Shown in pieces: positions 1 through 5,415 of a stretch of 64,000 nucleotides of DNA (within the stretch, counting starts at the first letter, position 1; every line of letters starts with the position of its first letter). A model generated the notes under the pieces. The model did no database searches and had not been told where the DNA came from. It worked only from the letters and a program-made list of their open reading frames with translations. This stretch comes from a phage: the NCBI GenBank assembly GCA_036930585.1, contig GCA_036930585.1_3066.1; one strand, given 5' to 3'. Made by a program: the position numbers and the translations under genes.

Positions 1-247
1 ATCGTGATTCCTTAACAAATTTCATAATTTCATCAAATTCATATGCAGCAATTTTAAGCTGGTGTTCCTTTTTAATCTTTTTGCACTGTGCTTTCCAATC
101 ACGTACGCGTTTACGATAATGTCTTCCTTGATACCAGTATCCTACCCAATTTACGGGTACTAATAAAAATGGAACTACAAATGGAAGAATTAATACGAAC
201 AAAAATATTACGCCAGATTCAATATCAGTCATAAAGTCTATAACCAT
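1..247 (-). CDS. partial CDS (N-terminal part only), small hydrophobic protein
   Basis: Open minus-strand frame from ATG at 245-247 running off the window start; hydrophobic stretch VIFLFVLILPFVVPFLLVPVNW; absent from ORF track because truncated. Confidence 0.35.
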   Translation of the reverse strand, partial: MVIDFMTDIESGVIFLFVLILPFVVPFLLVPVNWVGYWYQGRHYRKRVRDWKAQCKKIKKEHQLKIAAYEFDEIMKFVKESR

Positions 248-344
248 TCCAACAATCAATAGAATTACAAATGATATAGCTGTCACAGGACCTATTAATA
301 TATCAGTAGGAATTAGCTGGCGCTTTAATTCATACTTCACAGGT

Positions 345-950
345 TTACTTGGAAGGTATAGTGATGGCTTTGACATATTCTCTACATTCCTTAACAAATT
401 TTTCTAATAATAAATCGCTTTCAAAATTAGGATTTTCCACGAATTTATCAAAAAGATCATCAACAATAGTTAAGATATTCTTTTTGCTAAGAATACGTTT
501 ATTTTCATATTTTGTTTCAGAGTCAACTATAAGAGTAAAGAAATATTTCTTTCCCTGAAATTTTACCGTAGTATCAATATAAAATAAATTTGACTTTTGT
601 AAATTACGTTTAAACCATGCGTCACTTAAACTATAAACGCCAAGATAATCATAATCGTCATTTAAATAACAAACTGTCCATTCAGGAGAAATGAAATCAG
701 TAAATTCAACATCAAAATCACATGTCAATGAATGAATTGATTCAATACTTTTAATGAGTATTCCAGGACGTATTAAAGACTTTTTACCTTTATAAAATCC
801 AGAAAGACTTTCATCAGTTTCATATGAAGACCCCCAATAGTAATTACGTCCTTCTGCCATACGTTTAAGAGCATTTAGTAATTGATCTGGAACATCAACC
901 TGTCTTTGGAACTCTTCAAACATTGAATTGAAATCACTTTGCATTTTCAT
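345..950 (-). CDS. hypothetical protein (201 aa)
   Basis: ORF track; ATG start; co-oriented with neighbouring early genes; no motif recognised. Confidence 0.6.
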   Translation of the reverse strand: MKMQSDFNSMFEEFQRQVDVPDQLLNALKRMAEGRNYYWGSSYETDESLSGFYKGKKSLIRPGILIKSIESIHSLTCDFDVEFTDFISPEWTVCYLNDDYDYLGVYSLSDAWFKRNLQKSNLFYIDTTVKFQGKKYFFTLIVDSETKYENKRILSKKNILTIVDDLFDKFVENPNFESDLLLEKFVKECREYVKAITIPSK

Positions 951-971
951 TCCTATTTACTCCAAGTAATA

Positions 972-985
972 GGGGCCGAAGCCCC
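972..985 (-). other. intergenic GC hairpin GGGGC-CGAA-GCCCC
   Basis: Perfect 5-bp GC stem with tetraloop between two minus-strand ORFs; no T-run, so more likely an RNA stability or processing element than a terminator. Confidence 0.4.
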
Positions 986-991
986 TTATCA

Positions 992-1585
992 TTATTTCAG
1001 AGAATTAATATATTCCTGGACATCGGCAGAGGTAGTTTCAACCCCGGAAATATTACCATTAAAGGTTTCAACTCGGGCGAGAGTATCTTCAATATCAACT
1101 TTAGTTAGCGCTGCAATTTCAACTACATCATCAGCAGTACTAATTCCAAGGGCATTTGCTGCACGAGTTTCACGGATATATTCCAATTTAACTGCAAGTT
1201 CTTGGCGAGCATCATCCAATTCAACTACTTTCTTGGCGATTTCAATTCGCATTTCAGCATAACCATCAGCTTTAGTAGTCAACTGTTCAGCTGTTCGACG
1301 ATATAGCAAGCCGAGTTTAGCATGCATTGTTACATCTTGACCTTCAGAAAGAAGCTTGCGAATTTCACGCTCTTTTGATTCGGCCTGCTTATTCTTTTCG
1401 ACAATAAGTTCACGAATACGCTTTTCTTCATTAATAGATTTAACAGAAGCAGTTTTTAGATCTTTAATCTTATCAAGTAGTTTTGCTGCCGCAGCAGTAT
1501 ACTGTTCTTCAACAGATAGATTTTTAGCCATAGCAGAACCAAGTTTAGTGCGAATAAACTCAACAATTTTCTTCAGTGTGTTCAT
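992..1585 (-). CDS. hypothetical coiled-coil protein (197 aa), possibly PspA/IM30-like
   Basis: ORF track; heptad-rich, charged sequence ([34 protein letters not shown]); family assignment is speculative. Confidence 0.55.
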
Positions 1586-1659
1586 AACATTTCCTTTAGT
1601 TAATTAAGGGTTTTATAATCCGTGGGAGTATTATACTCTACTCCCAAGAGTTTGTAAAC

Positions 1660-1992
1660 TTATTCTTCGTCCAATTCATCAATAAATTTATCGATACTAC
1701 TATTAATAGACTCATCGATGATTAACAAAGCATCATCATCCATAATATTAATATTTTCTAAAGCATCAATATAAGCTTGATTGACTATAGACCATGCCCT
1801 TTGAAAATATGGGGCTTCATCATCAGGACTGAACCAACGTACACCTTCAAAGATACGGTTAGCATAATCCAATACCCACTGTACAGGCATGTTTTGAGAA
1901 CGTTCGTTAAACTCTTTAAATTCCTTAGATTCAAAAAGCTCTTCGGGATAATAATTTCGATTACAAAAAGCTTTACTAAAGTTACGTTTCAT
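1660..1992 (-). CDS. hypothetical protein (110 aa), acidic C-terminus
   Basis: ORF track; ATG start; C-terminal DDDALLIIDESINSSIDKFIDELDEE. Confidence 0.55.
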   Translation of the reverse strand: MKRNFSKAFCNRNYYPEELFESKEFKEFNERSQNMPVQWVLDYANRIFEGVRWFSPDDEAPYFQRAWSIVNQAYIDALENINIMDDDALLIIDESINSSIDKFIDELDEE

Positions 1993-2047
1993 AATGTTCT
2001 CCTCAAGTTACAGGCTCATAATATCTCAATCATGAGCCTGTGTAAAC

Positions 2048-2311
2048 TTATTTCATATTATTGAAATATTCTTCTGCGATTTCATCGTTATCGTGGTAAA
2101 CTTTAGAAGACAGTTTAACATAACTTTCAGCTGTGAACATGTTAATCACAACCTTTACAGTATACCACTGACCATCTTCATTACCCATTACTGCGTAAGT
2201 TTCAAACATCGGATGATCAGGACCGATAACTTTAATATCATTCACTGTACGACCGAAATCTTCTGAAACACATTTCATAAAGAAGTTGAACAGTTCGCCG
2301 TAATTATCCAT
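2048..2311 (-). CDS. hypothetical protein (87 aa)
   Basis: Track ORF 2048..2323 appears to begin on TTG; first in-frame ATG (MDNYGELF) is preceded by GGAGAA SD. Confidence 0.5.
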   Translation of the reverse strand: MDNYGELFNFFMKCVSEDFGRTVNDIKVIGPDHPMFETYAVMGNEDGQWYTVKVVINMFTAESYVKLSSKVYHDNDEIAEEYFNNMK

Positions 2312-2354
2312 TTCATTCTCCAAGTTGTTTTCTGTATCAGTAGTTGATAGTTGT

Positions 2355-2384
2355 ATAGTACCATGGAAGAACAGGGATGTAAAC
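2355..2384 (-). promoter_or_regulatory. early promoter (sigma70-type): -35 GTTTAC, 18-nt gap, extended -10 TGgTACTAT
   Basis: Minus strand reads cacaaaactGTTTAC-N18-TACTAT upstream of orf 2048..2311; same architecture at four other sites. Confidence 0.5.
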
Positions 2385-2516
2385 AGTTTTGTGAAAAAAT
2401 TTTTAAAAAGTTTTAGGGAATTCTAGGGCAGGGAGGGGAAATCAAAGGATAGGATAATATATTATAAAGGGTATAAACTAAATGATGCCTAGAGAGGCCC
2501 GGAAAGGCCTAGATAC

Positions 2517-2542
2517 CAAAAAGCCCTATCATTTAGATAGGG
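2517..2542 (-). terminator. rho-independent terminator (hairpin CCCTATC/GATAGGG + T-run)
   Basis: 7-bp stem followed by CTTTTT on minus strand just downstream of IP-like gene 2551..3114; second hairpin AGGCC-CGGAAA-GGCCT at 2495-2510. Confidence 0.5.
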
Positions 2543-2550
2543 ATTTAAAA

Positions 2551-3114
2551 TTATTTACCTAGTTTACTTATTATAGCTTCTGCAGCAGCTTTTAGCTTAG
2601 ATGCAGTGTTAATACGATTTTTAATTTCAGTATACGCATCGCCAAGAACATCAAGGCTATCAGAATAAACACTTACACTATTGCGTTCGCTATTTGAAAT
2701 AGAACCTTTAGTTTTGCGGTCAAAATCGGTGTACACGTCTTGAAGATCGCGGGCTGCCTTCTTTGCATCATCCAATGCATCAAGAGCTTTATTCAAAGCA
2801 TTAACGTATTTTTTAGTGTCGAACATATTCTTAGAAATTTTAACAGGTGCGCGTTCAGGAGTAGCTAACACAGATTTAGGAACCTGAGCGCCAGATGCCA
2901 ATTTCTTAGAAATTTTGAAAAATGCTTTATTGAATTTATTTTCTTGACTCATTGTAAAAGAACTATTATCGATGTTGTACATTTCAATAGCTTTAGCTTT
3001 CCACTTAAGAAAATCGCCGCGGTCTTTTGGGTCCAATTGGAAGAATACTTTAGTAAGATCTGCTTCAGATGGTAATTTTGCTGCTTCGGTTAAAAATTCG
3101 GCATAGGTTTTCAT
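2551..3114 (-). CDS. internal-protein-like head protein with N-terminal capsid targeting sequence (187 aa)
   Basis: N-terminus MKTYAEFLTEA resembles the T4 IP capsid-targeting sequence MKTYQEFIAE with a gp21-type (L/I)xE cleavage site. Confidence 0.6.
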   Translation of the reverse strand: MKTYAEFLTEAAKLPSEADLTKVFFQLDPKDRGDFLKWKAKAIEMYNIDNSSFTMSQENKFNKAFFKISKKLASGAQVPKSVLATPERAPVKISKNMFDTKKYVNALNKALDALDDAKKAARDLQDVYTDFDRKTKGSISNSERNSVSVYSDSLDVLGDAYTEIKNRINTASKLKAAAEAIISKLGK

Positions 3115-3203
3115 TTAAAATCCTTGAAATAATTTATCGGTTGGTTATTAATTATTTATTACTTTGTTACTATCCGTAACAGCGTTATCCGAGTGATTCA
3201 AAC

Positions 3204-3231
3204 TAAAAAGCCCCAACCTTTCGGTCGGGGC
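3204..3231 (-). terminator. rho-independent terminator (GCCCCGACC-GAAA-GGTTGGGGC + T5)
   Basis: Minus-strand hairpin followed by TTTTT; 31-bp sequence identical to copy at 3759-3786. Confidence 0.6.
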
Positions 3232-3239
3232 TAAGAATG

Positions 3240-3713
3240 TCATTTGATTTGTTTAGCAGACCAAATGCGGTCTTTAATAATTTTTTGGATGTCTTCAACA
3301 TACTCAAGAGAGTGAACATGTGGATTATCTTTGAAACTATAAGCACGGGCTAACTTTTGGCCTTCGGTTTTGATTACTAAAAGCTCTTTAAGGATAGCTT
3401 CATATTTGGAGATAATTCCTTTAACAATATTTTTCTCTTGTGTGACTTTAGGATCTTCTTTAGGAGCAGGTTTACCTGAAGCCTTTGCAAAAGCAGCGCC
3501 AGTAGCAACTAAACTTTTCCAGGCCATACTAACTGCATTCCCTGTAAATCCTTCGGCTTTCATATCACGAGCAAATTGGAATCGTGATTCATCGGAAGCA
3601 TCTTTATAGGAATATTTACCCGCGGCAATGGCTGCTTTTGCGACAGCTTGAATTTCGGTGCTAGATGCTTCATTTAACACCGCTTCATTTAAAAATTGAG
3701 CATATGATTTCAT
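3240..3713 (-). CDS. internal-protein-like head protein with N-terminal capsid targeting sequence (157 aa)
   Basis: N-terminus MKSYAQFLNEA (CTS-like, LNE-A cleavage motif); Ala/Lys-rich; minus-strand TATAAATA upstream. Confidence 0.6.
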   Translation of the reverse strand: MKSYAQFLNEAVLNEASSTEIQAVAKAAIAAGKYSYKDASDESRFQFARDMKAEGFTGNAVSMAWKSLVATGAAFAKASGKPAPKEDPKVTQEKNIVKGIISKYEAILKELLVIKTEGQKLARAYSFKDNPHVHSLEYVEDIQKIIKDRIWSAKQIK

Positions 3714-3749
3714 CTTATTTCCTGTTTTAATTCGTGGTTTTAATATACT

Positions 3750-3757
3750 TATTTATA
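3750..3757 (-). promoter_or_regulatory. late promoter TATAAATA
   Basis: Exact TATAAATA on minus strand about 37 nt upstream of ATG at 3713. Confidence 0.5.
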
Positions 3758-3758
3758 C

Positions 3759-3786
3759 TAAAAAGCCCCAACCTTTCGGTCGGGGC
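3759..3786 (-). terminator. rho-independent terminator (identical copy of 3204-3231)
   Basis: Same hairpin + T-run; ends the transcript coming from the tRNA / stable-RNA region. Confidence 0.6.
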
Positions 3787-3792
3787 TAAGCC

Positions 3793-4098
3793 TTGCGGCA
3801 ACCTTGTCGGGGTTCCACCTGCTAAGGCAAGTGTTTGTACGAAACGCCGGGATTCGAACCCGGTTATTAAGCAGTTGACGCTACTCAATATTTTTAAAAG
3901 GCCATATCTCGACCATATCCGAACGTTCCGTCAAAAACGCTACTCGGCTTACGGCAAAGATATTTCCTCGAATCGATAATTCGGTGCGCCGTTTCAGCTG
4001 TGATGTAAGGGGACATTAACAGATCGTAAAGATTTGTTAATGCCAGTCCTTACCCAGGGAACATCAGTCCGACGACTTACCGGTAGCGACCCGGTTTC
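3793..4098 (-). ncRNA. candidate stable small RNA(s) of the tRNA region (tRNA-like T-arm motif)
   Basis: About 300 bp with no credible ORF between orf 4099..4449 and a terminator; minus strand contains CCGGG-TTCGAAT-CCCGG (plus coords 3847-3863) without a full cloverleaf; by position analogous to T4 stable RNAs rnaC/rnaD. Confidence 0.35.
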
Positions 4099-4449
4099 TT
4101 AATATTCTTTTAAAGCATCAATCTGTTCACGGCGTTTACGCCATAAATTAATTACTTCATAAGCGGATTCAGCATTTCGAATTGGTCGGCATTTATATAA
4201 AGACTTGCGATTTTGATATTGTGTAGATAACGGAATTTTATCTAAAAGGTCTTTACGTTCAAAGTATTCGTAACCATCTAAGCCAAATGAACGATTTTTG
4301 AGAAATTGCCAATGACCAAATTCGTTTTGAATATAAATATAATCCGCGTGTTGATAAAGTAAATTAATTTCACGAAATGAGATATGTTTTTCATATTCAT
4401 TGAAGTAAAATGTTAAATCATGAACTACTAAATAAACATTACCTTTCAT
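4099..4449 (-). CDS. hypothetical protein (116 aa)
   Basis: ORF track; ATG with GAGGA SD; lies between tRNA-Arg and the candidate stable-RNA region. Confidence 0.55.
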   Translation of the reverse strand: MKGNVYLVVHDLTFYFNEYEKHISFREINLLYQHADYIYIQNEFGHWQFLKNRSFGLDGYEYFERKDLLDKIPLSTQYQNRKSLYKCRPIRNAESAYEVINLWRKRREQIDALKEY

Positions 4450-4467
4450 ATTTTCCTCACTTATAAT

Positions 4468-4543
4468 TGGTCGAGGCAGTAGGGATCGAACCTACGACCC
4501 AGGACTTAGAAGGTCCTTGCTCTTCCTTCTGAGCTATGCCTCG
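4468..4543 (-). tRNA. tRNA-Arg (anticodon UCU)
   Basis: Hand-folded: acceptor CGAGGCA/TGCCTCG, anticodon loop CUUCUAA, T-arm GGTTCGATCC, discriminator A, encoded CCA. Confidence 0.85.
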
Positions 4544-4547
4544 TAAT

Positions 4548-4623
4548 TGGGGTGACCGATGGGAGTCGAACCCATGACTACGAGAATCACAATCTCGAGT
4601 TCTACCAACTAAACTACGGCCAC
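4548..4623 (-). tRNA. tRNA-His (anticodon GUG)
   Basis: Acceptor GTGGCCG/CGGTCAC (one G-U), anticodon stem CGAGA/TCTCG, loop UUGUGAU, discriminator C, CCA encoded; no encoded G-1. Confidence 0.65.
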
Positions 4624-4717
4624 ATTAATACCTACTCCAACAATCAAGATGTCTTCACACGAAATTAAGAGAAGAGTGATCAGTTCAACCCCGATAATCG
4701 CGTCAAGTAGATATTAA

Positions 4718-4733
4718 TGTGACAATTGTCACA
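4718..4733. repeat. perfect 16-bp palindrome TGTGACAATTGTCACA (CRP-consensus-like; also an RNA hairpin)
   Basis: In the 114-bp gap between tRNA-His and tRNA-Asn, 4 nt from the 3' end of tRNA-Asn. Confidence 0.5.
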
Positions 4734-4737
4734 AATT

Positions 4738-4812
4738 TGGCGGACGTGATAGGATTCGAACCTATAACCAATCGCTTAACAGGCGATCGCTCTGCCATTG
4801 AGCTACACATCC
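4738..4812 (-). tRNA. tRNA-Asn (anticodon GUU)
   Basis: Acceptor GGATGTG/CACGTCC, D-stem GCTC/GAGC, anticodon stem ATCGC/GCGAT, loop CUGUUAA, discriminator G, CCA encoded. Confidence 0.7.
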
Positions 4813-4816
4813 AAAT

Positions 4817-4903
4817 TGGTGGGGAGTGATGGAGTCGAACCACCCGAGTCGCAATGACAATGGATTTACAGTCCACACCGCTACCTCTACGGGATAACTC
4901 CCC
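4817..4903 (-). tRNA. tRNA-Tyr (anticodon GUA), long variable arm
   Basis: 87 nt; acceptor GGGGAGT/ACTCCCC, anticodon loop CUGUAAA, long variable arm, T-loop TTCGACT, discriminator A, CCA; D-arm pairing irregular. Confidence 0.6.
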
Positions 4904-4916
4904 TTAATTCTTAATT

Positions 4917-4991
4917 TGGTGGCCCTGGGTGGAATTGAACCACCATCTGGCGATTATGAGTCGCTTGCTTGAACCTTCCAGCTACAGGGCC
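4917..4991 (-). tRNA. tRNA with CAU anticodon (Ile2/lysidine-type, or Met)
   Basis: Acceptor GGCCCTG/CAGGGCC, anticodon loop CUCAUAA, discriminator A, CCA; anticodon arm resembles bacterial tRNA-Ile2. Confidence 0.65.
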
Positions 4992-4992
4992 T

Positions 4993-5068
4993 TGGTGCTG
5001 ATTGACGGAATCGAACCGCCGACCTTCTCATTACAAGTGAGTTGCTCTACCTACTGAGCTAAATCAGC
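4993..5068 (-). tRNA. tRNA-Thr (anticodon UGU)
   Basis: Acceptor GCTGATT/AATCAGC, D-stem GCTC/GAGC, anticodon loop CUUGUAA, T-loop TTCGATT, discriminator A, CCA. Confidence 0.8.
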
Positions 5069-5073
5069 AAAAC

Positions 5074-5163
5074 TGGCGGAGGCGATAGGATTTGAACCTA
5101 TGAGTCGCCGGAGCGACTGCCGGTTTTCAAGACCGGTGCATTAAACCACTCTGCCACACCTCC
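5074..5163 (-). tRNA. tRNA-Ser (anticodon UGA), long variable arm
   Basis: 90 nt; acceptor GGAGGTG/CGCCTCC, anticodon stem CCGGT/ACCGG, loop CUUGAAA, discriminator G, CCA. Confidence 0.8.
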
Positions 5164-5165
5164 AG

Positions 5166-5239
5166 TCTCCATACAAGGATTTGAACCTTGGACCTCCTGA
5201 TCCCAAATCAGGCGCTCTACCAAACTGAGCTACACGGAG
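5166..5239 (-). tRNA. tRNA-Pro (anticodon UGG), CCA not encoded
   Basis: Acceptor CTCCGTG/TATGGAG (two G-U), anticodon stem CCTGA/TCAGG, loop UUUGGGA, discriminator A; 2 nt from tRNA-Ser. Confidence 0.75.
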
Positions 5240-5249
5240 TAAATTAAAT

Positions 5250-5323
<74 letters not shown>

Positions 5324-5328
5324 AAATT

Positions 5329-5415
5329 TGGTGCGAGAAGTGGGACTCGAACCCACAAGGAAATCATTCCGCAGCATTTTAAGTGCTGTGCCTTTACCAA
5401 TTTGGCCATTCTCGC
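5329..5415 (-). tRNA. tRNA-Leu (anticodon UAA), long variable arm
   Basis: 87 nt; acceptor GCGAGAA/TTCTCGC, anticodon stem CAGCA/TGCTG, loop CUUAAAA, T-loop TTCGAGT, discriminator A, CCA. Confidence 0.8.

What the first reader, a model, noticed from the sequence alone, without database searches (positions are those of the whole stretch)
1..2384. Early five-gene block of unknown function where I recall the e / nudE gene cluster in T4
An early promoter at 2355-2384 precedes co-oriented ORFs of 87, 110, 197 (long coiled coil, possibly PspA/IM30-like), 201 aa and a small hydrophobic protein running off the window. None matches T4 proteins I can recall for this interval; from memory, T4 has e, nudE and the e.2-e.8 genes between the IP genes and the tRNAs. 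A membrane protein paired with a coiled-coil protein under early control is a pattern seen in host-takeover or superinfection-exclusion modules.
Basis: inference. Interest (0 to 1): 0.5.

Follow-up and report, generated by a model that had tools for sequence, protein, structure and literature searches.

The report
T4 e.4–e.8 genes; PspA-like e.6
This stretch is not a new gene block but the long-sequenced, still uncharacterised e.8–e.4 early gene cluster of phage T4, and its best-conserved gene, e.6, turns out to be a distant relative of the bacterial membrane-repair protein PspA.

Summary
The sequence features are real: a T4-type early promoter (2383-2355, minus strand) followed by co-oriented ORFs of 87, 110, 197 and 201 aa and a two-helix membrane protein cut by the window edge. 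The five ORFs are T4 genes e.8, e.7, e.6, e.5 and e.4, at 100, 76, 100, 94 and 84% protein identity. Window 1-2542 aligns to T4 68.3-70.9 kb as one collinear block at 91.8% DNA identity, and 493 phage records cover at least 80% of the 2.6-kb query. In T4 these genes are transcribed early, their proteins are detected, and knock-down has no fitness effect in the laboratory; all are annotated 'unknown'. Its most divergent members pass Pfam's PspA_IM30 threshold. The family profile aligns residues 1-138 with Vipp1/PspA 1-140 (hhalign 95%, E 4e-8), and reversed or shuffled controls score about 0 bits. The predicted fold is an amphipathic helix plus a long hairpin. I found no paper reporting this. 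Membrane protection by e.6 is inference. e.8, e.7 and e.5 stay unassigned.

The parts
2355..2383 (-). Early (sigma-70 type, T4 'GTTTACA') promoter in front of e.8
   Evidence: TTTACA-17-TACTAT with TG. Nearly identical to T4. Same distance to the ATG as the -35/-10 signals annotated in T4 record L13089.
2048..2311 (-). e.8 (msp1), 87 aa, acidic soluble protein, function unknown
   Evidence: 87/87 identical to T4 e.8. 8 nt differences, all synonymous. phrog_2678 'unknown'. No Pfam or PDB match. Found in 597 phage records.
2018..2046 (-). Second early-type promoter, in front of e.7, overlapping an inverted repeat
   Evidence: TTTACA-17-TATTAT. Conserved in T4. Annotated as putative -35/-10 in L13089.
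1660..1992 (-). e.7 (msp2), 110 aa, acidic (pI 4.25), function unknown; 3' half mosaic relative to T4
   Evidence: 76% identical to T4 e.7. The DNA alignment shows a conserved 5' half and a divergent 3' half. phrog_7266. Found in only 159 phage records.
1630..1658 (-). Third early-type promoter, in front of e.6
   Evidence: TTTACA-17-TATAAT, 11 of 12 matches. A promoter is annotated at the same place in L13089, although the surrounding spacer sequence differs from T4.
992..1585 (-). e.6 (msp3), 197 aa: divergent phage homologue of PspA/IM30/Vipp1 (ESCRT-III superfamily)
   Evidence: 197/197 identical to T4 e.6. 18 nt differences, all synonymous. Family members P0082 and P0080 pass the Pfam PF04012 gathering score. 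hhalign family vs Vipp1/PspA: 95%, E 3.8e-8, residues 1-138 to 1-140. HMM control: real PspAs median 20 bits, reversed and shuffled about 0. AF2 model: helix 2-22 plus hairpin 25-80/86-145. Foldseek top 8 PDB hits are all Vipp1.
971..986 (-). GC-rich UUCG-loop hairpin directly after the e.6 stop codon
   Evidence: AGGGGCCGAAGCCCCT found by the terminator scan. A stem_loop is annotated at the same place after msp3 in L13089. No clear T-run follows on the minus strand, so it is more likely an RNA-stability or processing element than a strong terminator (inference).
345..950 (-). e.5 (msp4), 201 aa, soluble alpha/beta protein, function unknown
1..376 (-). e.4 (msp5), small inner-membrane protein with 2 predicted TM helices and a basic C-terminal tail; last ~5 codons lie beyond the window
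   Evidence: 105/125 identical to T4 e.4. Hydrophobic segments 28-46 and 60-78, pI 9.7. phrog_2604. A 2-TM relative sits at the same relative position in Klebsiella phage KP179 (28% identity, E 9e-9).

Best explanation
The region is the e.8-e.7-e.6-e.5-e.4 segment of the T4 'e.x' accessory gene cluster (originally msp1-msp5). It lies between the tRNA/rnaC/rnaD region and e.3-e.2-nudE-e, and is carried here by a Tequatrovirus close to phage PinkRuby. Three closely spaced early promoters transcribe it. The genes are dispensable in the laboratory.

One gene can now be assigned. e.6 is a phage-specific, highly diverged homologue of PspA/IM30/Vipp1, the bacterial branch of the ESCRT-III superfamily. 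It keeps the N-terminal amphipathic, positively charged helix (alpha0) and the long alpha1/alpha2-3 hairpin, but has its own shorter C-terminal region.

Inferred mechanism, not shown: e.6 binds the cytoplasmic face of the inner membrane through alpha0, polymerises, and stabilises or reseals the membrane so that the infected cell stays energised. The threats would be damage from injection, superinfection, membrane-targeting abortive-infection effectors, or premature holin triggering. It may be recruited by the small membrane proteins encoded just downstream (e.4, and e.3/e.2 beyond the window), much as PspB/C or LiaI recruit PspA/LiaH. e.8, e.7 and e.5 remain without a supported function.

Confidence by step:
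- Identity with T4 e.8-e.4: about 0.99.
- e.6 homologous to PspA/IM30: about 0.9.
- e.6 acts on or at the membrane to protect it: about 0.45.
- Functional partnership with e.4: about 0.25.
For: Identity with T4:
- Protein identities of 100/76/100/94/84% to T4 e.8-e.4.
- A single collinear blastn alignment, window 1-2542 = T4 68318-70854 at 91.8%.
- 661 phage records match; 493 of them cover at least 80% of the query.
- Same gene order, followed by e.3, e.2, nudE and e, in slur03 and T4.
- Promoters and hairpin as annotated in L13089.

Expression and dispensability in T4:
- Early RNA for all five. Proteins are classed early for four and middle for e.6 (PMC9697503 supplement).
- Knock-downs scored 'Not Fit', function 'Unknown' (PMC11879866 supplement).

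Selection: all 26 nucleotide differences in e.8 and e.6 are synonymous.

e.6 as a PspA relative:
- A profile of 32 relatives finds a closed family of about 200-aa proteins among 1.84 billion representatives.
- Its divergent members P0082 and P0080 hit Pfam PspA_IM30 at 39.0 and 35.1 bits (gathering score 33.9; E 8.9e-10 and 1.4e-8), from residue 6-7 to profile position 2-3.
- Both lie in T4-like contigs with uvsX, gene 41 helicase and ligase.
- Window e.6 vs P0080: 24.5% identity over 200 aa, E 6.6e-16.
- hhalign of the family vs 18 Vipp1/PspA: 95% probability, E 3.8e-8, 136 columns, start-to-start collinear.
- Family HMM on 120 real PspA/Vipp1: median 20 bits. Reversed: -0.1. Shuffled: -1.65.
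- AF2 helices 2-22, 25-80 and 86-145.
- Foldseek top 8 PDB hits are all Vipp1, and archaeal CdvB2 also appears.
- alpha0 has hydrophobic moment 0.45 (95th percentile of shuffles) and net charge +3 across the family.

Module context:
- e.6 is the most widespread gene of the block: 1,107 records, against 669, 644, 597 and 159 for the others.
- The order 'e.6 - about 200-aa protein - small 2-TM protein' recurs in Jiaodavirus KP179 and Moonvirus Merlin. TM proteins also flank e.6 in the metagenomic T4-likes.
- Cellular PspA homologues are typically encoded next to small integral membrane partners such as PspB/C, LiaI and PspM (bioRxiv 10.1101/2020.09.24.301986).
Against: - The window protein itself has no Pfam PspA_IM30 hit even at E<=1.
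- The narrow T4-proximal alignment gives only 15% hhalign probability.
- The family profile reaches no cellular PspA at E<=1e-3 in 1.84 billion sequences. The link therefore rests on the divergent members and on profile-profile comparison.
- The model is uncertain exactly at alpha0 (pLDDT about 40) and at residues 163-184.
- The C-terminal 50-60 residues do not align with PspA alpha4/alpha5.
- No membrane binding, polymerisation or phenotype has been shown. Knock-down of e.6 has no effect in standard conditions.
- e.4 and e.5 are far less widespread than e.6. e.4 has no similarity to PspB/PspC/LiaI. Aeromonas phage avDM7 shows no TM neighbour. The partnership is therefore weakly supported.
Confidence: 0.6

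Rival explanations
1. e.6 is a PspA mimic used against the host rather than for membrane repair. It would either co-polymerise with and poison host PspA, or bind PspF through the conserved hairpin. Either way it manipulates the host phage-shock response.
For: The conserved part of e.6 (residues 1-138) corresponds to PspA(1-144). According to the abstract listed (PMC6003685), this fragment associates with PspF. e.6 is transcribed early.
Against: T4 shuts off host transcription within minutes (established knowledge), so controlling a sigma-54 operon would bring little benefit. The family is conserved in phages of Aeromonas, Klebsiella, Serratia and unknown metagenomic hosts, while sequence identity to any host PspA is under 20%. 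That argues against mimicry of one specific partner surface. Nothing here was tested experimentally.
Confidence: 0.12
2. One reading: the block is a host-takeover or superinfection-exclusion module. The membrane protein e.4 and the coiled-coil protein e.6 would block entry of secondary phage DNA or shut down a host function.
For: Early promoters and early transcripts. e.4 is an inner-membrane protein. There is a weak PHROG hit of e.4 to a 'moron/host takeover' membrane-protein family (phrog_944, E 0.0028). A membrane-stabilising PspA-like coat could in principle also hinder injection by later phages (inference).
Against: No similarity of any of the five proteins to Imm, Sp or any annotated exclusion, takeover or defence family. 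In T4, superinfection exclusion is attributed to imm and sp, which map elsewhere (established knowledge). e.4 and e.6 do not co-occur strictly: 669 against 1,107 records.
Confidence: 0.1
3. The PspA resemblance of e.6 is an artefact of coiled-coil composition. On this view e.6 is an unrelated helical protein, for example a scaffold or adaptor, and none of the five genes has an assignable function.
Against: Reversed and shuffled PspA sequences score about 0 bits against the e.6-family HMM, while 120 real ones score a median of 20 bits. The alignment is collinear from residue 1 to residue 1, including the alpha0/alpha1 linker and the hairpin tip. Two family members exceed Pfam's curated threshold. 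Foldseek, which uses 3Di plus amino-acid scoring, puts eight Vipp1 structures on top.
Confidence: 0.1

Closest known systems
Phage T4 genes e.8, e.7, e.6, e.5, e.4 (GenBank L13089 msp1-msp5; NC_000866 T4p131-T4p127)
   Same: Orthologous. 76-100% protein identity, with the same order, overlaps, promoters and hairpin, and 91.8% DNA identity over 2.5 kb.
   Different: The 3' half of e.7 and the e.7/e.6 spacer are replaced by divergent sequence. Upstream of the e.8 promoter this phage carries two extra internal-protein-like genes that T4 lacks.
PspA / IM30 (Vipp1) / LiaH family, Pfam PF04012, bacterial branch of the ESCRT-III superfamily
   Same: For e.6: an N-terminal amphipathic basic helix and a long helical hairpin of the same lengths. 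The profile alignment is collinear, 1-138 to 1-140. The most divergent family members pass the Pfam threshold. Small membrane-protein genes are neighbours.
   Different: Under 20% identity, and the T4 protein is not detected by the Pfam model. It is about 25-40 residues shorter, and its own conserved C-terminal region (146-197) does not align with alpha4/alpha5. It is phage-encoded under an early promoter, with no PspF/LiaRS-type regulator and no PspB/PspC/LiaI homologue. Polymerisation and membrane binding are untested.
PspB/PspC and LiaI, small integral membrane partners of PspA/LiaH
   Same: Analogy only. e.4 (and T4 e.3/e.2) are small inner-membrane proteins encoded just downstream of the PspA-like gene. 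A 2-TM protein keeps that position in other genera.
   Different: No sequence similarity to the PspC, PspB or LiaI-LiaF-TM families. No interaction is shown. e.4 is missing from many phages that have e.6.
T4 Imm and Sp (superinfection exclusion membrane proteins)
   Same: Small early membrane proteins of T-even phages (established knowledge).
   Different: No sequence match of e.4 or any other protein of the block to such families. They sit at a different genomic location. No functional data.

Membership tests
T4 e.x accessory cluster (e.8-e.4 / msp1-msp5) | Orthology of each protein to the T4 gene product | tested here: met
   BLASTP identities 100, 76, 100, 94 and 84% over full length.
T4 e.x accessory cluster (e.8-e.4 / msp1-msp5) | Same gene order and genomic position (between rnaC/rnaD-tRNA region and e.3-e.2-nudE-e) | tested here: met
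   Single collinear alignment to T4 68318-70854. rnaC/rnaD homologues at 3755-4099 and tRNAs at 4468-5415. In relatives e.3, e.2, nudE and e follow. Here they lie beyond the window edge.
T4 e.x accessory cluster (e.8-e.4 / msp1-msp5) | Early promoters before e.8, e.7 and e.6 and stem-loop after e.6, as annotated in T4 | tested here: met
T4 e.x accessory cluster (e.8-e.4 / msp1-msp5) | Early expression during infection | not testable with these tools
   Known only for the T4 orthologues: early RNA for all five, protein class early for four and middle for e.6 (PMC9697503 supplement).
PspA/IM30 family (Pfam PF04012; ESCRT-III superfamily), for e.6 | Match to the Pfam PspA_IM30 model above its gathering score | tested here: not met
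   Window e.6 has no hit at E<=1. Only divergent members of the same phage family pass: P0082 at 39.0 bits and P0080 at 35.1 bits, against a gathering score of 33.9. e.6 is therefore filed as a remote homologue forming a phage sister family, not as a PF04012 member by Pfam's rule.
PspA/IM30 family (Pfam PF04012; ESCRT-III superfamily), for e.6 | Statistically supported homology of the family to PspA/Vipp1 over alpha0-alpha3 | tested here: met
   hhalign 95.0%, E 3.8e-8, 136 columns, 1-138 to 1-140. Against a single Vipp1 fragment: 82.9%, E 9e-6. HMM scores on 120 real PspAs have a median of 20 bits; reversed and shuffled sequences score about 0. The narrow alignment A1 alone is not significant.
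PspA/IM30 family (Pfam PF04012; ESCRT-III superfamily), for e.6 | ESCRT-III-type core fold: long alpha1/alpha2-3 helical hairpin | tested here: inconclusive
PspA/IM30 family (Pfam PF04012; ESCRT-III superfamily), for e.6 | N-terminal amphipathic membrane-binding helix alpha0 | tested here: met
   Predicted helix 2-22 (low pLDDT). Hydrophobic moment 0.45, at the 95th percentile of shuffles; net charge +3, conserved across the family; Vipp1 alpha0 scores 0.57. Membrane binding itself was not tested.
PspA/IM30 family (Pfam PF04012; ESCRT-III superfamily), for e.6 | C-terminal helices alpha4/alpha5 of PspA | tested here: not met
   The profile alignments stop at residue 138-142. e.6 has short helices at 151-161, 166-174 and 186-196 of its own, with a family-specific conserved C-terminus.
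PspA/IM30 family (Pfam PF04012; ESCRT-III superfamily), for e.6 | Self-assembly into rings, rods or carpets and membrane stabilisation or remodelling | not testable with these tools
   Needs purified protein, liposomes and electron microscopy.
Psp/Lia-type operon | Homologous membrane partners (PspB, PspC, LiaI/LiaF) or regulators next to the PspA gene | tested here: not met
   No Pfam, NCBIfam or PADLOC hit of e.4, e.5, e.7 or e.8 to such families. Only non-homologous small TM proteins are present.
Superinfection-exclusion / host-takeover modules (e.g. T4 Imm) | Sequence membership in a known exclusion or takeover family | tested here: not met
   Pfam, PHROGs, NCBIfam and PADLOC scans return no such family. 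The only trace is a weak phrog_944 hit for e.4, E 0.0028.
Superinfection-exclusion / host-takeover modules (e.g. T4 Imm) | Exclusion or toxicity phenotype | not testable with these tools
   Needs plating and DNA-entry assays.

The most novel reading that the evidence does not exclude
T4-like phages carry their own ESCRT-III/PspA-type membrane-maintenance system. e.6 would polymerise on the inner membrane and be recruited by the small phage membrane proteins e.4/e.3/e.2. It would keep the infected cell energised against membrane-disrupting abortive-infection effectors, superinfection damage or premature holin firing. That would make it a viral counterpart of the host 'phage shock' response, and possibly a broad counter-defence.
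Probability: 0.3. Interest if true: 0.7.

Novelty: new member of a known kind. Interest (0 to 1): 0.42.

Why it matters
As a gene block this is ordinary: it is standard T4 content, sequenced about thirty years ago and present in hundreds of genomes. The original claim of novelty should be dropped.

What is worth keeping is the assignment of e.6. About half of T4's genes still have no function, and e.6 was still listed as 'unknown' in a 2025 genome-wide screen. I found no paper linking it, or any phage gene, to PspA.

A PspA/Vipp1-like protein conserved in more than 1,100 T4-like phage genomes gives a concrete, cheap-to-test hypothesis: that these phages actively maintain the host inner membrane. 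That touches several current questions: how phages cope with membrane-targeting abortive-infection systems, how lysis timing is protected, and how widely ESCRT-III-type proteins are distributed, including in viruses of bacteria.

Tried and rejected
1. Pfam, NCBIfam and PADLOC scans of all five proteins gave nothing above threshold. PHROGs returned only families of unknown function.
2. Sequence search of e.8, e.7, e.6 and e.5 against PDB chains gave nothing significant.
3. The e.6 profile from close relatives against PDB sequences found Vipp1 only at E 1.2-2.8, which is not significant alone. The same narrow alignment in hhalign gave only 15%. The link appeared only after adding the distant members from the 1.84-billion-sequence HMMER search.
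6. The search for related loci with the broad e.6 alignment failed because no conserved stretch was available. The afdb50 fold library was unavailable.
7. Literature searches for 'e.6/e.5/e.8', the T4 accessions, 'PspA + ESCRT-III + phage-encoded' and 'PspA_IM30 + phage genome' returned nothing relevant. Miller et al. 2003 is not held. Petrov et al. 2010 does not mention these genes.
8. The GenBank labels 'host specificity protein', 'sulfurtransferase' and 'capsid scaffolding protein' seen on e.6, e.5 and e.7 in some records have no support in any scan here and were disregarded.
9. The eLife 2025 paper on heat stress, PspA and phage tolerance is not informative for e.6.
Full report
OBSERVATION. 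On the minus strand of window 1-2384 there are co-oriented ORFs at 2311-2048 (87 aa), 1992-1660 (110 aa), 1585-992 (197 aa) and 950-345 (201 aa). A fifth gene starts at ATG 376, overlaps the fourth by 32 nt and runs off the window at base 1. A T4-style early promoter, GTTTACA-17 nt-TACTAT with a TG extension, lies at 2383-2355. The generic promoter scan is not evidence by itself: it found 17 sites against 15.3 +/- 3.6 in shuffles. This site, however, is almost base-for-base identical to the T4 sequence. It also sits 44 nt before the ATG, like the -35/-10 signals annotated in T4 record L13089. Two more early-type promoters sit before the second and third genes (2046-2018 and 1658-1630), and a GGGGCTTCGGCCCC hairpin follows the third gene (971-986). 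All three are annotated at the equivalent places in L13089.

WHAT THE BLOCK IS. The five proteins are T4 e.8 (87/87 identical), e.7 (84/111, 76%), e.6 (197/197), e.5 (189/202, 94%) and e.4 (105/125, 84%). Window 1-2542 aligns to T4 68318-70854 as one collinear block at 91.8% identity. Megablast of the 2.6-kb region matches 661 phage records. Of these, 493 cover at least 80% of the query, and the best is Escherichia phage PinkRuby at 97.8%. In T4 and in phage slur03 the cluster continues with e.3, e.2, nudE and e; here these lie just beyond the window's left edge. Its own refutation condition ('present unchanged in T4') is met. The genes are real and constrained: all 8 nucleotide differences in e.8 and all 18 in e.6 relative to T4 are synonymous.

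WHAT IS KNOWN ABOUT THESE GENES. They were deposited as msp1-msp5 in GenBank L13089, with promoters and stem-loop annotated. In the T4 time-resolved omics study, e.4, e.5, e.7 and e.8 are classed early RNA/early protein, and e.6 early RNA/middle protein (PMC9697503 supplement). In the CRISPRi-ART screen, e.2-e.8 are listed as function 'Unknown' and prior essentiality 'UNKNOWN', and all their knock-downs are scored 'Not Fit' (PMC11879866 supplement). They are therefore expressed, early, dispensable accessory genes. I found no paper assigning any of them a function.

e.6 IS A REMOTE PspA/IM30 HOMOLOGUE. Direct scans find nothing for the window protein in Pfam, PDB sequences, NCBIfam or PADLOC. 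Its relatives form a tight family of 195-209-aa proteins in T4-like phages. There are 49 clusters in the 5.8-billion-protein set. A 32-sequence profile gives 45 hits at E<=1e-3 among 1.84 billion representatives, and no cellular protein is reached. When each of 39 family members is scanned on its own, 5 hit Pfam PF04012 PspA_IM30. Two exceed the curated gathering score of 33.9 bits: P0082 at 39.0 bits (E 8.9e-10) and P0080 at 35.1 bits (E 1.4e-8). Both align from residue 6-7 to profile position 2-3. These two are full-length family members (E 3.8e-20 and 3.2e-21). Window e.6 against P0080 gives 24.5% identity over 200 aa, E 6.6e-16. Both lie in T4-like contigs next to uvsX, the gene 41 helicase and DNA ligase.

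Profile-profile comparison of the broad family alignment with 18 cyanobacterial PspA/Vipp1 proteins gives 95.0% probability and E 3.8e-8. It covers 136 columns, with e.6 1-138 aligned to Vipp1 1-140, starting methionine to methionine. Against a single Vipp1 fragment it gives 82.9%. As a control for coiled-coil composition, I scored 120 real PspA/Vipp1 sequences with the e.6-family HMM. They score a median of 20.0 bits (maximum 29.4). Their reversed copies score a median of -0.1 (maximum 5.5) and shuffled copies a median of -1.65 (maximum 5.0).

The AlphaFold2 model has pLDDT 74.5 overall and 85-97 in the hairpin. It shows helix 2-22, a long hairpin 25-80/86-145, and short C-terminal helices. 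The eight best Foldseek hits in the PDB are all Vipp1 (E 1.7e-3 to 1.1e-2), and archaeal CdvB2 also appears. The N-terminal helix is amphipathic, with hydrophobic moment 0.45 at the 95th percentile of shuffles, and carries net charge +3 across the family.

Four caveats apply:
- The narrow T4-proximal alignment alone is not significant.
- The model is uncertain at alpha0 and at residues 163-184.
- The last 50-60 residues, with their own conserved C-terminus, have no counterpart in PspA.

I therefore treat e.6 as a diverged phage sister family of PspA/IM30, not as a PF04012 member by Pfam's rule.

THE OTHER FOUR GENES. e.8 (pI 4.5) and e.7 (pI 4.25) are small acidic soluble proteins with no detectable relatives outside their PHROG families. 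e.7 is mosaic: its 3' half and the spacer to e.6 differ from T4. e.5 relatives carry a precomputed Pfam family, PF26876.1, that is not in the local Pfam copy. Its structure prediction is poor (pLDDT 58) and gives no significant fold match. e.4 has two hydrophobic segments and basic termini, which suggests an N-in/C-in hairpin in the inner membrane. T4 e.3 (two segments) and e.2 (one C-terminal segment) are also membrane proteins.

CONTEXT ACROSS PHAGES. In 50,697 phage records, e.6 is found in 1,107. These span Escherichia, Klebsiella, Shigella, Aeromonas, Enterobacter, Yersinia, Citrobacter, Salmonella and Serratia phages, among others. The counts for the rest are e.4 in 669, e.5 in 644, e.8 in 597 and e.7 in 159. 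e.6 is thus the conserved element and the others are more lineage-restricted. The local order 'e.6 - about 200-aa protein - small 2-TM protein' nevertheless recurs in Klebsiella phage KP179, where the 2-TM protein is 28% identical to T4 e.4 (E 9e-9), and in Citrobacter phage Merlin. In the metagenomic T4-likes, e.6 is flanked by several small TM proteins. Aeromonas phage avDM7 shows no TM neighbour by my simple scan.

MECHANISM. Shown: the identity of the genes, early promoters conserved with T4, purifying selection, homology of e.6 to PspA/IM30 over alpha0-alpha3, and the membrane character of e.4. Taken from the literature for the T4 orthologues: early expression and dispensability. Inferred: that e.6 binds the inner membrane through alpha0, polymerises, and stabilises or reseals the membrane of the infected cell, possibly recruited by e.4-type membrane proteins. 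The model for this is cellular PspA homologues, which are encoded next to small integral membrane partners such as PspB/C, LiaI and PspM (bioRxiv 10.1101/2020.09.24.301986). The lack of a knock-down phenotype in rich laboratory conditions fits a conditional, stress- or defence-related role but does not demonstrate one. I considered three rivals: PspA mimicry directed at host PspF or PspA, a superinfection-exclusion or takeover module, and a coiled-coil artefact. They are rated at about 0.1 each in the rivals section.

NOVELTY AND VERDICT. The block itself is already known T4 content, so the finding as written is not novel. The assignment of e.6 to the PspA/IM30-ESCRT-III superfamily appears unreported in the literature I could search. 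It is also absent from current T4 annotation. Automated Pfam annotation already tags the most divergent relatives in metagenomic contigs. I rate this as a new (viral) member of a known kind, of moderate interest and directly testable.

Noticed in passing
window 2551-3114 and 3240-3713 (minus strand); repeats at 2509-2548, 3196-3235, 3751-3790: There are two paralogous genes (187 and 157 aa, both phrog_2280). Their N-termini, MKTYAEFLTEA and MKSYAQFLNEA, resemble (from memory) the capsid-targeting sequence of T4 internal proteins. They sit between the rnaC terminator and the e.8 promoter, where T4 has nothing. Each is followed by a copy of a terminator hairpin, giving 3 copies. This looks like cassette insertion or duplication by recombination at the terminator. 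Internal proteins are known anti-restriction cargo, so these may be more interesting than the e.x block.
   Followed up: partly
window 3755-4099: This stretch is 93.6% identical to T4 rnaC plus rnaD, the small stable 'species 1 and 2' RNAs. Rfam has no family for them. The ORFs listed there (3727-3888, 3734-3979, 3894-4016) are therefore probably spurious.
   Followed up: partly
window 4099-5415: There is an array of 10 tRNA genes: Arg, His, Asn, Tyr, Met, Thr, Ser, Pro, Gly, Leu. T4 has 8 in this region. No segB homing-endonuclease gene is present, and a 116-aa ORF at 4099-4449 follows tRNA-Arg. The same layout occurs in phage slur03.
   Followed up: no
window 1586-1800 (3' half of e.7 and e.7/e.6 spacer): There is a mosaic junction. 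The 5' half of e.7 is nearly identical to T4. The 3' half and the spacer are replaced by divergent sequence, yet a consensus early promoter is kept in both versions. e.7 is also the least widespread gene of the block, with 159 records.
   Followed up: partly
window 386-401 and 7-22 (minus strand): The exact 16-nt motif AAATTTGTTAAGGAAT occurs twice in the 64-kb window, with 0 expected by chance. One copy lies about 10 nt upstream of the e.4 start. The other lies at the position of the e.3 start, which is just beyond the window edge. It contains the Shine-Dalgarno sequence and encodes the shared C-terminal 'KFVKE' of e.5 and e.4. T4 e.4 and e.3 are weakly similar over their full length (21% identity, E 0.002), which suggests an old tandem duplication that included the translation-initiation region.
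   Followed up: partly
L007 3132-3722 (KP179) and L010 3148-3792 (Merlin), compared with window 345-950: The roughly 200-aa proteins that occupy the e.5 position in other genera share with e.5 only a motif at the extreme C-terminus: (D/E)xF(V/I)xxCR(E/D). The matches are weak, at E 0.0018, 0.081 and 0.005 in single comparisons. They may be extremely diverged e.5 homologues.
   Followed up: partly
L009 2300-2950 (phage RB43, NC_007023): The RB43 e.6 homologue is split between two reading frames in the deposited sequence and is annotated as a 97-aa C-terminal fragment. This is either a pseudogene or a sequencing frameshift.
   Followed up: no
GenBank records hit: Several records carry unsupported automated product names: e.6 as 'host specificity protein', e.5/e.4 as 'sulfurtransferase', and e.7 as 'capsid scaffolding protein' (in T6). 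No family scan here supports any of them.
   Followed up: partly
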